A DNA stretch of 64,000 nucleotides from Octopus vulgaris (lineage: Eukaryota). The stretch spans positions 3,348,001 through 3,412,000 of the forward strand of contig OX597816.1 in NCBI GenBank assembly GCA_951406725.2, read 5' to 3'. A model generated the notes under the pieces. The model saw only the letters and a list, made by a program, of their open reading frames with translations, was not told where the DNA came from and did not search any database. Position numbers and translations under genes: made by a program. Position 1 is the first letter of the stretch. Each line of letters opens with the position of its first letter. This document shows positions 14,516-63,635 of this stretch, in pieces.

Positions 14516-15352
14516 TTCAGTTTTATTTCAAGATTTCTTGCCAATAGAGAAAGAGCCGGTTTCTAACCTAGATTCAAGACTCGTTCATTAGAATTTCAAT
14601 AGCAACATGGTATTTTTGTATGTATATATGTATGTATGTGTGCAGATATGTATGTTTTGTATGCTTATGTATGTATTCTCGTGCATATAGTTGTATATCT
14701 AGACATGCTCATATATATATTTAAGTGATAAACTTCTGCAAAGTTTTACAGATTTTTACGGTTCCAGTGATGGATTGGACCTGTAGCCTTCGAATTAGCT
14801 TTTTCCCTTCTGGTTTTGAGAAACATAATTTCTCAAATTTGGTATTTAGGCAGTGTGTTATATATCCCAGGGCTCCAATAATTATAGGTATAAACCTGCA
14901 CTTGTAATCTGGATAGAGTAATAATAGATTTCTCAATAGTTCAGCATAGGTGTTCTCTTTGACACTGATCTTCAGCTTTATGTTAACTTTTGCTGGGCAG
15001 CTAATTTCCACAACTGTGCACATTTTCACTTCTCTATCCCAATATTTCCTCTTCCTGGATTGCAAACGCATCTCTTTCAAAGTAGGAGGTAGTAATCCGG
15101 CTATTCGTCCATGATGGACTGCTTTGGTGACAATGTCGGAGCTTTCTCGCATCCATGCATAGTCTTCTGCTCATATAGATTCATCTTTTCACCTGATGAT
15201 ATGTTACGGTAGAGTCATGCAACTTCTTTGGGCTTATATTCTAGGTTATCAGACAAAGAGCGTTGCTCAAGGAGCTGCCTTCCAAGGCTTATGATGTTAT
15301 CAGCTTCATGTAGGCAAACTTGGTCAAGGGATGGACTTCGACTCTTGGTGGT
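14516..15352 (-). mobile_element. R4/Dong-like RLE LINE 3' fragment with an internal deletion, flanked by (TATG)n
   Basis: QKTMHG and FAIQEEEI joined to WDRE..VVEISCP..KENTY..IPIIIGALG (restriction-like endonuclease end). Confidence 0.8.
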
Positions 15353-18397: not shown

Positions 18398-18592
18398 ATG
18401 CAACACGGAATTTTGGTCGCGGTTTCAAAGCGATGAAAATATTTTGGCAAATTTATTTTAAATGTTGAAATGAATCTAACGGTTTTTGTGTGTTTCTTAA
18501 ATGGCTTATAAACACCTTCCACGCTGCAATTGTTTTCGTTCCAGTACACCATCTCAGATCAGGTCACTTGCTATGCAAGTACATCTCCGTAA
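18398..18592 (+). mobile_element. Fragment of the G3-C8 hammerhead element family, core deleted
   Basis: Near-identical to 50913-51090 but lacks gtcagtgaaca. Confidence 0.8.
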
Positions 18593-22671: not shown

Positions 22672-22969
22672 TAGGGAGATGTACTCGCATAGTAAGTGAT
22701 ATGATCTGAGATCGTGTGCTGAAACGAAAACAATTGTAGCGTGGAAGGTGTTTATAAGCCATTTAAGAAACACACAAAAGCCGTTCGATTCACTTCAACA
22801 TTTAAGTTTAATTTGTCAAAATATTTTCGTCGCTAAAATCGCGACCTGTTCACTGACAAAAATCCGTCTTGCGAAAATATTTTGACAAATTAAACTTAAA
22901 TGTTGAATTGAATCGAACGGCTTTTGTGTGTTTCTTAAATGGCTTACAAACACCTTCCACGCTGCAATT
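22672..22969 (-). mobile_element. Fold-back element in (TA)n with a G3-C8 hammerhead
   Basis: Arms 22732-22829 and 22872-22969; both ends abut (TA)n. Confidence 0.85.
22812..22860 (-). ncRNA. Minimal type I hammerhead ribozyme, G3-C8 core variant
   Basis: uuuguca GUGAACA g gucgc gauuuua gcgac GAA aauauu U ugacaaa: 7-bp stem I, 5-bp stem II, palindromic stem III. Confidence 0.7.
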
Positions 22970-48333: not shown

Positions 48334-48375
48334 GCTACAGACGCGTTTCGGGGTATTGCCCCTTTTCAATGCAGC
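48334..48375 (-). ncRNA. Minimal hammerhead ribozyme, U3-A8 core (copy 2)
   Basis: Identical to copy 1, 362 nt away. Confidence 0.8.
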
Positions 48376-49734: not shown

Positions 49735-50761
49735 AGGATTCTTCCTGCCGATACCATTATGTGTGGTTCCAGCACCATTATGCTGAAAATGCAGATTTTC
49801 ATACCTGCCTGACAAAGGAATCCGATCTAATTTCAGAATAAGAAAATACTGAGACATGCAATCGCGAAACTCCCTTTTCCCAATAACTCCCACGTTTTGC
49901 TCTCTTAATACATGGATTTCCCCTTAATACTTGGAAATTCCAGAATCTTTCACGAAGTATTCATTTGATGTACTGGGTTCACATCATCCGGATCATTAAA
50001 ATATACCATTCCTCATTTTCGTTCTCTTTGAAATGGATCCCATGGATTCCTTTTCGATCCCAATTCGCGAGGATATTCTTTGTGTAGATTGTAGAAATGT
50101 TTTAATGGAACTTTTGTTTTTCTTGCAAATGGTTGGGAATTTCATTTCATTCACGTCGGGGCTTAGCTCCACTTGGGATACCATTGTCTCCGCTTCGTAA
50201 AATATGGATTCTTTCTCAGCAGAAAAATCTTTCTTCTTACTAGGCTCCCGAACTCACATAATTTTAAACTTCGTGAATTAGTTTGTATATTTTCCCTACA
50301 TTAATTTCTGCTAGATTATTCCGTCACCCCCACCCTTTCTCTCTCTCTCTCTCTGTTCATAATAAAATGATATGGTATAATTATTAAATAATGCAATATA
50401 ATTAAAAATAATAATTTATGATAATTAAGAAGTTCTCAATTCCCTCGCACTGATGAGATCCAAATAGATTGAAATGATTATATATACGACTACTGAAGAC
50501 TTTACAGTTGAATAGGAATATCAAGGACTCCATATTTAAAACGAGAGAGAGAGAGAGCAATTCAGATTATGTGGTATATTCTATCCTATCAAACAGAAAT
50601 TGTTTCATTGTCGGAAAAACAAGGATTTCTGGTAAGACGATGCTCTCCTTTGCAATGGAATAACCAATGAGACAACAGATTGCTAGAAAAATAAAATGGG
50701 TGAGGCGCTAATATTTTTCAGCTTCACAAATTTGGAATTGGGAAGAAAGAAAAAGTAAAGT

Positions 50762-51090
50762 GGAAGGTGTTTATAATCCATTTAAGAAACACACAAAAAC
50801 CGTTAGATTCACTTCAACATTTAAATTTAATTTGCCAAAATATTTTCGTTGCTTTGAGACCGCGACCTGTTCACTGACAAAACTTTGTGCTGCATCTCCG
50901 TGTCAGTGAACAGGTCGCGGTCTCAAAGCAACGAAAATATTTTGACAAATTAAATTTAAATGTGGAAGTGAATCTAACGGTTTTTGTGTGTTTCTTAAAT
51001 GGTTTATAAAACACCTTCCACGCTGCAATTGTTTTCGTTCCAGCACACGATCTCAGATCAGGTCACTTGCTATGCAAATACATCTCCGTA
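50762..51090. mobile_element. Fold-back element with two divergent G3-C8 hammerheads and a 12-bp TSD
   Basis: Arms ~50760-50879 and 50901-51021; HHRs at ~50833-50879 (-) and 50901-50947 (+); TSD aaaaagtaaagt at 50750 and 51091. Confidence 0.88.
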
Positions 51091-52427
51091 AAAAAGTAAA
51101 GTCTTTTATATTTATATTTTTGAATATTTAAAGCCAAATTTGTTTGGTTTAGTAAAATTAATAAGTTTAAGTATGAGAGAAACAGTTAGATTTGGGTGGT
51201 AGAAACAGTGTTGCGTTGTGAGAGTTAGGTGGAGACAACGTGTAAAACAATTGTGAAAAAGATCACAATTATATAATAATAAAAAGGAAGAAAAACTAAA
51301 ATCGAAAAAGAAAGGGATAGGCTTAAAAACTGAAATTTTAGTTAAAATGAGAATGAATTTTGAGAAGGAAAGTGCTACGCTTTTAGCCGAATGAAACTTG
51401 TTTTGAATTTCAAATCAACCGAGAAAGAATAAAGATATCAGTTGAGAACGAGATTGTAGGAAAAGGTAAAGGTTCGAAGTGAGATCGTGCGCTAATTTAA
51501 GTGTAACTTGATAAAGAGATAATAAGTAAAAGTGGGGGAGGAAGAGGGTAGGGAGTTCAAGAATAAAACAGAAATTTATTTTGAGATTTTGGTGGGGAGA
51601 TAAATTATTGAAAAGTTTATTGATAGATATGAATCGTGAATGATCTTTGAATTTTTTTGCGGTTTGTTTTCTTATAAAATCTATTAAAATAAATTTGAAA
51701 CGTAGATATTAAAACACCTGAGAAGCGAGCGCTAAGAGTTTGATTAAAAGGAATTGCAATTTGATTTAGAGAGCAAGTGAGATTTATTAGGATTTGATGT
51801 GAAAAGAAATCAAACACTAGATTCGAACCCTCCACTTCGCGTCAAAAAAAAAAAAAAAAAAGGAAGTAACATCTCACATATGAGAGCGGCGGTGGTTGTA
51901 CTTCAGGGGAAATGTTGTAATCTCAGTCACTAACACACCACAGAGAAGAGGCAGCTGACCCCTAATGAGCTCAAGGACTCGAGACAGTTCTTACGATACA
52001 GTTTATACATCGCCAACGTGAAGACGTGAGGCTTTTTGGTTAGAATATTTGGCTAAATATCGTAGATGGTGAGTTCGATTCACGGTGGTGTCCTTGAGCA
52101 AGACACTTTATTCCACATTACTCAAGTTTACTCAGCAGGCAAAAATGAGTTATACCTGTAATTTAATGGGTCAGCCTTGTCCCATTTTGTGCCTCCCGTA
52201 ATCTCCCTGAGAACTAACGTGCTAACGATTCTGCCAGCTCACCGCGTCTGTGGAGTACTCGGCTGCTTACACGTTAATTTCATCAGGAGGCTGTTCCAGT
52301 TGATAGGATCATTTGGATCGCTCGTCGTTGTATCTGACGGAGGACCAGTACATCGCCGACACGTACGCAAACACATCAAAAAGAATGTAGCAAACTAAAG
52401 CTTAAAGGGTGAATATTCTCTGTCAGT

Positions 52428-58580: not shown

Positions 58581-59136
58581 CTCTTGCTTTATTGTATCTA
58601 TTTGTTATTTATTTATACGCTGCTATATTTGATTGGCTGTTGTTTAATATGGTGTAATTATCAGCAGAGACCGCTTTAGCTTTAAACAAAGAACTAGCTG
58701 TGTTGGTTTTTAGCTAAATATTTCCTCGTTCCTCTCAATTTACGTTATGACGACAGCAACAACAACATCAGCAACAACGATAATTTCGAGGAGAGATGAA
58801 AGGCAAAGACAATCCTGGCCGGATTTTCCACCTTAAGCGGGTAAAAAGGCGTAACGAAACGCCGCCATCCGTGACCTCCGTTTTCTACCTTTCCATAAGA
58901 ATATTTTTTTGCAAGACAGGCTCTTTCTGTTGAGCTACCATTCATATGGCACCATTTCATAACATCTAATAACCGTTTCTAGTGCAGACACTGAACCACT
59001 AATTTGTAGAGAGGAGTCGATCGGTTAAACTAACTTCCGTACTCGACTGATACTTTGGTTTGTCGAGTTGGAAAGGATACATGGCAAAGTTGACCAAAGT
59101 TGACACGATTTGAACTTAAAATGTAAAGAGCCATTT

Positions 59137-59645
<509 letters not shown>

Positions 59646-62791: not shown

Positions 62792-63029
62792 TATTTTAAC
62801 TCGATATCATCTCCACCTCTAACACAACACATGTAATGCTTGATACATTACGATCCATCAACAACAGATCATCTCCGGCCCCAAACACCATGTACAAAAA
62901 AACTACGAATAAATTAAATAATACCGGTATTATTCAACCCAAGAATAACAATCGGGAAGTACGTACCGTAAACTTACAACATAAAATGTACGAAAAACTG
63001 AGTAAGTGAAAGCACGCTATAAAAAGAAA

Positions 63030-63126
<97 letters not shown>

Positions 63127-63152
63127 GTAATAATAATAATAATTATTATTAT

Positions 63153-63635
63153 TGTGAAAGACCAAAACAATAAAGTTTGCTTATTGATCGACATGAGCAT
63201 CCCCTGTGATCATAATATCTCGGCGAAAGAGTTTGACAAACTCAGAAAATATAAAGACCTACTCATTGAAATTGAGAAAATGTGGCATCTCAAGGCGGTT
63301 ACAATACCAGTGATCGTAGGAGCATTAGGAATGATCAAGAAGGGAACCGAAAATTATATGAGAATGATCCCTGGCTTACCATCCCTGCAAGAAGTGCAAA
63401 AGATTGTCTTAACTGGTACATCACACGTATTGAGAAGAGCATTGTCGCTGTGAGAACTATTACTACACATGTAGTAATAGTTTTTTAATTTAAAAAAAAA
63501 TTTTTTTTAAATAAATAAACGAACTATTGAGTTTAGTTTAATGGCCTACCAATGTATACTATGAGTTTCTTTGCCCTAGGAGTCGGGAAGACACTCGGCA
63601 AGAAATGGAAGCAAATTTGAAAGAAGAAGAAAAAA

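What the first reader, a model, noticed from the sequence alone, without database searches (positions are those of the whole stretch)
22672..22969. Fold-back element family with an inverted-core (G3-C8) hammerhead and a UUU cleavage triplet
Seen: uuuguca GUGAACA g gucgc..gcgac GAA aauauu U ugacaaa, with all three stems formable. The same motif occurs twice at 50762-51090, and a core-deleted copy lies at 18398. Known: swapping C3-G8 to G3-C8 keeps the tertiary pair. Inference: this is a repeat family with a doubly atypical HHR that standard descriptors would overlook.
Basis: partly seen in the sequence, partly recalled or inferred. Interest (0 to 1): 0.82.

Follow-up and report, generated by a model that had tools for sequence, protein, structure and literature searches.

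The report
Swapped-core hammerhead in active Penelope retrotransposon
The fold-back repeat is the short front end of a young, very abundant Penelope-type jumping gene, and it carries a hammerhead-shaped RNA motif in which two paired core letters have traded places compared with its sister family; it is likely a slow natural variant of a known self-cutting RNA, but cutting has not been shown.

Summary
The motif is real (minus strand, 22860-22812). Helix III is a bare 6-nt palindrome that can pair only in a dimer. The 'fold-back family' is the pseudo-LTR (RNA 5' end, hammerhead, first 30 codons) of a Penelope-like retrotransposon whose ~1,080-aa RT/GIY-YIG parent I found. Inverted arms, two 3' ends about 60 nt apart and 6-15-nt target duplications are the known Penelope pattern. 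G3-C8 belongs to the young intact parents (33 of 38 ORF-linked copies). A 55%-identical sister family has C3-G8, so the swap looks compensatory. UUU is not special: a C3-G8 relative has it too. Against activity: positions 3 and 8 are no more conserved than flanks among copies, an unpaired G3/G8 lineage also spread, and copies show no excess of ends at the cut site. Other Penelope families here use U3-A8 and A3-U8. I found no natural G3-C8 in the papers searched, but one key paper was unavailable. The scan noted this motif before elsewhere in this genome and in others. New variant of a known kind.

The parts
22672..22871 (-). Left arm: nearly whole short unit of the Penelope-like element (subfamily B), from about 10 nt inside the RNA 5' end to the outer 3' end (end B), next to a (TA)n tract
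22812..22860 (-). Minimal type I hammerhead motif: stem I, core G3-U-G-A-A-C8-A9, extra G, 5-bp stem II, GAA, palindromic AAUAUU, U17; predicted cut between 22819 and 22818
   Evidence: cut site inferred from hammerhead numbering
22672..22762 (-). First ~30 codons of the parent ORF (ATG at 22762-22760, MAYKHLPR...); 22731-22672 is the ~60-nt 'tail' between ends A and B
   Evidence: ORF continues from this ATG in L288 and L289
22872..22969 (+). Right arm: 5'-truncated inverted copy that starts at the end of stem II (no 5' half of the core) and stops at end A, followed by (TA)n
50760..50897 (-). Left arm of second inverted insertion (subfamily A), reaches the AGATG 5' end; G3 at 50874; stem II mismatch
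50901..51091 (+). Right arm of second insertion, G3 at 50906, ends at end B; stem II mismatch
50750..50760 (+). Target-site duplication AAAAAGTAAAG, repeated at about 51091-51101
18398..18592 (+). Solo short copy (subfamily A) with an internal 11-nt deletion at about 18415 that removes the 5' strand of stem I and the core

Best explanation
The repeat is the front end (pseudo-LTR) of a young Penelope-like retrotransposon, and its G3-C8 motif is likely a slow, dimer- or protein-dependent hammerhead whose 3-8 pair was likely restored by a second, compensating change. Shown: the unit sits 0.9-1.4 kb behind the RT/GIY-YIG ORF and, in tandem copies, runs straight into the ORF start; the young parents carry G3-C8; a sister family has C3-G8 at the same place. 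Inferred: the RNA starts at AGAUG about 20 nt before stem I. The element's protein nicks both strands of AT-rich or (TA)n DNA and starts reverse transcription at two internal sites, 31 and 92 nt into the ORF. When it uses the sites next to the RNA 5' end, only a 145-206-nt piece is copied, which explains the mass of short copies. Extension of both strands, often from two different RNAs, gives the head-to-head fold-back with one arm ending at each site and a 6-15-nt duplication. The templates are uncut RNA, so any cutting is slow, regulated, or removes RNA from the pool (it would separate the cap from the ORF). The window's fold-back copy itself is probably inert, since its long hairpin removes stem I.
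For: Parent found by following long copies: L201 and L267 (ORF >=1,000 aa, RT motifs, Pfam GIY-YIG 25.5 bits over cut-off 22.6). ORF start inside the unit (L288, L289). Many near-identical young copies. 33 of 38 ORF ends with a downstream motif have G3-C8, 4 G3/G8, 1 U3/C8; 15 of 53 had none within 2.6 kb. Sister family, 55% identical over 815 aa: CUGAUGC-G, stem II GUCAC/GUGAC, in 12 of 19 loci. Metagenomic relative L318: CUGAAGA-G, stem II, AAAUUU, U17. Inverted pairs: 58 of 74 have one arm ending at A and one at B. Duplications in 17 of 21 pairs outside (TA)n, against 1.7 with shuffled flanks. Subfamily A arms differ at 15 of 139 polymorphic cells (10.8%) against 3.7% background, like random partners (12.7%). 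63 of 131 arms reach the 5' end. Literature: minimal hammerhead traits and U3-A8 variant (PMC4209133); two internal RT starts, both strands extended, C3G/G8C partly rescues a Penelope hammerhead, which cuts only with protein (PMC11167929); inverted pLTR, tail, 8-10-bp duplications (PMC3846280, PMC8557442).
Against: No cleavage data. Within the family the core is no more conserved than flanks (27 of 1036 against 181 of 5645, p 0.33). A G3/G8 lineage without the 3-8 pair spread as long and short copies (13 of 235 arms). Only 2 arms end near the cut site, 4.2 expected by chance. Helix III is very weak, and the modelled double hammerhead (-27.8 kcal/mol) is less stable than two monomers (-29.8). 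The sister family has A9C, which hints at relaxed catalytic constraint in the whole lineage. In subfamily B the two arms are more alike than shuffled partners (3 of 70 against 17%), and only 1 of 73 pairs mixes subfamilies A and B, so the two-RNA step is not general or not proven.
Confidence: 0.62

Rival explanations
1. Same Penelope pseudo-LTR, but the hammerhead no longer cuts; its shape is kept as a binding or translation-control element at the RNA 5' end.
For: Active G3/G8 lineage; A9C in the sister family and U4C, U3-A8, A3-U8 cores in other Penelope families of this genome; no ends at the cut site; hammerhead mutants insert normally in vitro (PMC11167929).
Against: The 3-8 pair is Watson-Crick in every other family examined in the table (C-G, G-C, U-A, A-U), and 12 of 16 core-region letters match the sister family. 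The 3-8 pair belongs to the active fold (established knowledge), so keeping it suggests selection on catalysis.
Confidence: 0.3
2. An independent retrozyme-like family that replicates through hammerhead-cut circles and only borrows Penelope enzymes.
For: Very high number of short, ORF-less copies; retrozymes are proposed to derive from pseudo-LTRs (bioRxiv 10.64898/2026.07.22.740005, part 1 read); an earlier scan note reports a satellite of this motif (e1-8672697, not checked).
Against: In 90 tail-selected loci I saw no head-to-tail array of the unit itself; one locus repeats it within a 426-bp period. Copies are not permuted at the cut site and end at the RNA start, or run on into the parent's upstream sequence.
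Confidence: 0.05
3. A DNA transposon or MITE with terminal inverted repeats, in which the hammerhead look-alike is chance.
For: Long inverted arms and target duplications.
Against: Arms have variable inner truncations and two different outer ends; solo arms are common; the unit is contiguous with an RT/GIY-YIG ORF and contains its start; a homologous motif with compensatory changes sits at the same place in relatives.
Confidence: 0.02

Closest known systems
Minimal type I hammerheads in pseudo-LTRs of metazoan Penelope-like elements (Cervera and de la Pena 2014, PMC4209133; parts 1-2 of 4 read, supplements not seen)
   Same: Position in the pseudo-LTR; extra nucleotide between 9 and 10.1; G10.1-C11.1; palindromic helix III needing a dimer; solo and opposite-strand copies; a natural swap of the 3-8 pair is known (U3-A8 in Schistosoma Cercyon).
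   Different: The pair here is G3-C8, which the text read does not report; a G3/G8 lineage coexists.
Poseidon element of Anolis, PAc (Frangieh et al. 2024, PMC11167929; parts 1-2 of 4 read)
   Same: Two internal RT start sites inside the ORF start define a tail; AT-rich targets; both strands extended; hammerhead near the ORF start; uncut RNA is the template.
   Different: G3-C8 is an engineered, partly active mutant there and the natural state here; the tail is ~60 nt rather than 30-40; the ORF starts 92 nt after G3, not inside the ribozyme; the protein has a CX3CX2C linker and a long insertion in the RT fingers.
Neptune/Nematis-type C-terminal endonuclease Penelope elements (Craig et al. 2021, PMC8557442; passages and supplement passages read)
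   Same: C-terminal GIY-YIG with CCHH-type residues, CX2-5CxxC linker, (TA)n insertion bias, inverted 5'-truncated copy, tail.
   Different: DKS instead of DKG, a long fingers insertion not seen in the three Nematis rows read, only ~20% identity to this genome's Neptune-like family; clade not assigned.
Natural hammerhead core variants (Perreault et al. 2011, PMC3088659; section 8 read)
   Same: Covariation of the 3-8 pair in nature (U3-A8).
   Different: G3-C8 is not named in that section; those ribozymes are not tied to Penelope elements.

Membership tests
Penelope-like element (EN+) | Single ORF with RT and C-terminal GIY-YIG endonuclease | tested here: met
   L267 ORF, RT motifs by eye, Pfam GIY-YIG 25.5 bits > 22.6; Pfam RVT_1 did not score
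Penelope-like element (EN+) | Pseudo-LTR that includes the ORF start, from partial tandem copies | tested here: met
   L288, L289: unit runs into MAYKHLPR... ORF; same unit follows the ORF end
Penelope-like element (EN+) | Inverted 5'-truncated copy and optional tail at one end | tested here: met
   58 of 74 inverted pairs end A+B; tail 61 nt
Penelope-like element (EN+) | Short variable target-site duplication in AT-rich DNA | tested here: met
   17 of 21 pairs outside (TA)n, 6-15 nt; shuffled mean 1.7, max 5
Nematis or Neptune clade | Placement in the RT tree with reference sequences | not tested
   Linker motif fits both; no reference proteins in hand; ~20% identity to local Neptune-like ORF
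Minimal type I hammerhead | Stems I and II around the core, G10.1-C11.1, extra nucleotide after A9 | tested here: met
Minimal type I hammerhead | Palindromic helix III for dimer formation | tested here: met
   AAUAUU, 6 of 6 self-complementary, but only -0.2 kcal/mol
Minimal type I hammerhead | Literal core CUGANGA...GAAA | tested here: not met
   GUGAACA; no Rfam hammerhead among 33 matches at E<=10
Minimal type I hammerhead | Watson-Crick pair between positions 3 and 8 | tested here: met
   G-C in 66 of 78 arms; C-G in sister family and L318; exception: G3/G8 lineage
Minimal type I hammerhead | NUH cleavage triplet | tested here: met
   UUU in 75 of 78 arms; H = any but G (PMC8495972 passage)
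Minimal type I hammerhead | Self-cleavage at position 17 | not testable with these tools
   No raw RNA reads offered; genomic copies show no excess of ends there
Non-LTR retrozyme | Head-to-tail tandem monomers, each with a hammerhead | tested here: not met
   Window copies are solo or inverted; no unit-length array among 90 tail-selected loci

The most novel reading that the evidence does not exclude
One genome preserves a compensatory walk through a ribozyme active site: C3-G8 (sister family) to an unpaired but still mobile G3/G8 lineage to the now dominant G3-C8, a catalytically active natural form of a lab-made mutant, while other Penelope families in the same genome use U3-A8 and A3-U8. 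In addition, the fold-back insertions record a dimeric Penelope enzyme copying two different RNAs in one event.
Probability: 0.3. Interest if true: 0.66.

Novelty: new variant of a known kind. Interest (0 to 1): 0.48.

Why it matters
What hammerheads do in Penelope elements is open: they are nearly universal, cut poorly, and were dispensable for insertion in vitro. This family offers a natural series (C3-G8, G3/G8, G3-C8, plus U3-A8 and A3-U8 families) together with a young parent whose ORF is intact, so activity and its role can be tested directly. It also shows that CUGANGA-based searches miss whole abundant families. It is a variant of a known system, not a new kind.

Tried and rejected
Rfam over the window and over the motif: no hammerhead among listed matches, only hairpin and microsatellite noise (75 of 225 rows not shown). 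First parent hunt through Pfam GIY-YIG found Neptune-like families that share no sequence with the unit. A search with the 30-codon peptide gave only short copies, which I then used as the core-blind sample. Related loci in viral and prokaryotic collections: none. Sequencing runs: no RNA holder listed, contigs only; no splice joint and no start, end or strand information. Splicing as the cause of the sharp 5' end: the upstream sequence looks like a branch point and acceptor, but no matching donor turned up in three parent 3' regions; I prefer a transcription start with a cap-copied G (19 of 28 AG-ending arms have GAG where the template has C or T; p 9e-9 against 18% G), but this is inference and microhomology at junctions may add to it. 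Polarity of G3/G8: tree unresolved (22 rows, 17 of 27 young B rows left out) and ages not different (3.9% against 2.9%, p 0.72). MAFFT alignment of the short motifs was wrong in places and one row was given on the wrong strand; I used the descriptor table instead. Lunse et al. 2017 (PMC5785218) is not held, so its variants are unseen.

Full report
OBSERVATION. The motif is on the minus strand at 22860-22812 as described: 7-bp stem I, GUGAACA, one extra G, 5-bp stem II, GAA, AAUAUU, U17. Stems I and II are the predicted fold (z -2.6). Helix III is a loopless palindrome, so it can pair only between two molecules, and weakly. The pair at 50760-51091 has the motif in both arms, each with a broken middle pair in stem II. 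The 18398 copy has lost 11 nt including the core. Rfam shows no hammerhead among 33 matches over the motif.

THE FAMILY. The window lies in a 2.8-Gb genome, octopus-like by size and repeats (recall; earlier scan notes say the same). Two DNA searches gave 60 close loci. For a sample blind to the core I searched with the 30 codons at the other end of the unit (150 rows) and took 90 loci: 10 returned, 20 picked for long open frames or clustering, 60 in list order. The unit is about 206 nt. It has a sharp 5' limit at AGATGCAGC and two sharp 3' ends, A and B, 61 nt apart. Of 74 short inverted pairs among all loci then held, 58 have one arm ending at A and the other at B. Of 42 pairs with both termini recognised, 21 lie in (TA)n and were set aside; 17 of the other 21 have a 6-15-nt duplication, against 1.7 with shuffled flanks. 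Copy number is roughly 10^4-10^5. This is the published anatomy of Penelope-like insertions (PMC8557442 and PMC3846280, passages).

THE PARENT. Some copies continue upstream. Following them led to L201, where the unit lies about 0.9 kb behind a GIY-YIG ORF end. That ORF has many near-identical copies; L267 holds over 1,000 open codons with RT motifs, a CX3CX2C linker and GIY-YIG. In tandem copies L288 and L289 the unit runs directly into the ORF start, MAYKHLPR..., whose ATG lies inside the unit, 92 nt after G3; ends A and B fall 31 and 92 nt into the ORF. So the unit is the pseudo-LTR. Of 53 distinct ORF 3' ends, 38 have the motif downstream: 33 G3-C8, 4 G3/G8, 1 U3/C8. G3-C8 is therefore the state of the young parents, not decay. 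The closest database proteins are 31-53% identical and nearly all unnamed. I could not assign the clade.

IS THE SWAP COMPENSATORY? The N-terminal search exposed a sister family with a 1,312-aa ORF, 55% identical over 815 aa. In 12 of 19 loci it has, upstream of its ORF start, CUGAUGC-G, stem II GUCAC/GUGAC, GAAA-GAAC-U, then U (7 loci) or C (5 loci). One of 5 metagenomic relatives, L318, has a complete CUGAAGA-G motif with AAAUUU and a UUU triplet; L321 looks similar by eye; the other three show none or are cut short. So C3-G8 is the outgroup state, stems I and II changed while keeping their pairs, and UUU is shared with a canonical-core relative. Other Penelope families in this genome have U3-A8 (L093) and A3-U8 (L092), so all four Watson-Crick forms of the 3-8 pair occur here.

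RESULTS AGAINST ACTIVITY. In the core-blind sample 66 of 78 arms are G3-C8 and 56 keep all 11 core letters. The core differs in 27 of 1036 cells against 181 of 5645 in flanks (p 0.33); G3+C8 in 12 of 171 against 61 of 1434 (p 0.12); only core A/T letters are marginally lower (10 of 676 against 120 of 4211, p 0.04). More telling: GUGAAGA (G3/G8, no pair) occurs in 13 of 235 distinct arms, long and short, on several backgrounds, so that lineage was mobile. By parsimony it is the half-way state, but the tree leaves it in an unresolved basal group and its age does not differ. Of 131 arms, 63 reach the 5' end and only 2 end near the cut site, 4.2 expected: templates are uncut RNA. The double hammerhead is predicted less stable than two monomers. 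In the window's own fold-back, a read-through RNA forms a -163 kcal/mol hairpin that abolishes stem I.

MECHANISM (shown versus inferred). Shown: anatomy, parent, ORF start, two ends, duplications, core states. Inferred, largely by analogy with the Anolis element (PMC11167929, main text read: internal RT starts, both strands nicked and extended, predicted dimer, C3G/G8C partly rescues, cutting needs protein, mutants insert normally): RNA starts at AGAUG; reverse transcription from the nearby sites A or B gives the short copies; both strands are extended, giving the fold-back. In subfamily A the two arms differ at polymorphic sites as often as random partners (15 of 139; background 3.7%, shuffled 12.7%), which fits two RNA templates; in subfamily B they do not (3 of 70), and 1 of 73 pairs mixes A and B. 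The extra G before AGATG in 19 of 28 arms fits a copied cap; an intron ending there is the alternative (Penelope has one near its start; PMC2377424, passages). The hammerhead most likely cuts slowly and conditionally; a dead structural relic is the main rival.

NOVELTY. Minimal hammerheads in pseudo-LTRs and a natural U3-A8 swap are known (PMC4209133, parts 1-2; PMC3088659, section 8). G3-C8 appeared only as a laboratory mutant in my searches: 'G3-C8' 1 paper (PMC3884650, passage), 'C3G'+'G8C' 2 papers, 'G3C8' absent from 25 listed of 29, nothing further (listings only). Lunse et al. 2017 on Penelope hammerhead variants was not held, and the supplements of PMC4209133 were not read; either may already hold this variant. 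Earlier notes of this scan describe the same motif elsewhere in this genome and similar ones in other genomes; they are unchecked AI notes and were seen after my reading was formed. Verdict: new variant of a known kind, interest 0.48.

Noticed in passing
window:47803-48496 (minus strand; cores at 48369 and 48007): A 362-bp tandem (1.9 copies, 98% alike) with a type I hammerhead in each unit: U3-A8 core UUGAAAA, palindromic ACGCGU, GUC triplet. It looks like a retrozyme or another Penelope pseudo-LTR dimer and is a better candidate for activity than the finding itself.
   Followed up: partly
window:50448-50485 (+): CTGATGAG-ATC...GAT-TGAAA, a degenerate hammerhead-like stretch.
   Followed up: no
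L092 (G000:C4:864500-871000): Neptune-like element flanked by inverted pseudo-LTRs with an A3-U8 core (AUGAAUA, ACCGGU, GUC).
   Followed up: partly
L097, L098, L104; L088, L105; L094: Further Neptune-like families with odd hammerhead-like cores read by eye: U4C (CCGAAGA), U3/G8, and GCAA in place of GAAA.
   Followed up: no
L322-L325 and others: Young sister Penelope family with many intact ~1,312-aa ORFs, a long asparagine-rich insertion (like those reported in Adineta, PMC3846280) and an A9C hammerhead core.
   Followed up: partly
G000:C16: 24 of the 40 best matches to a long subfamily-A 3' region lie on contig C16 (2% of the genome), spread over 55 Mb; the query came from C16. Possibly a chromosome with its own element history.
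   Followed up: no
L091, L110: Young Neptune-like family (781-aa ORF, many identical copies) with repeated CCAAT/CRE-like motifs and a TATA box in its 3' region ahead of a U3-A8 hammerhead.
   Followed up: no
window:9132-9268 (-): Partial match to metazoan SRP RNA, 55.7 bits, under the gathering score of 70; probably an SRP-derived repeat.
   Followed up: no
window:41517-42371 (-), 59120-59566 (+), 63010-63453 (+), 14721-15170 (-): 3' fragments of non-LTR retrotransposon ORFs with a restriction-like endonuclease motif, judged by eye from the translations.
   Followed up: no
L121 (G000:C27:32594500-32601000): The short unit repeated within a 426-bp period, probably a local tandem amplification with flanking DNA.
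   Followed up: no
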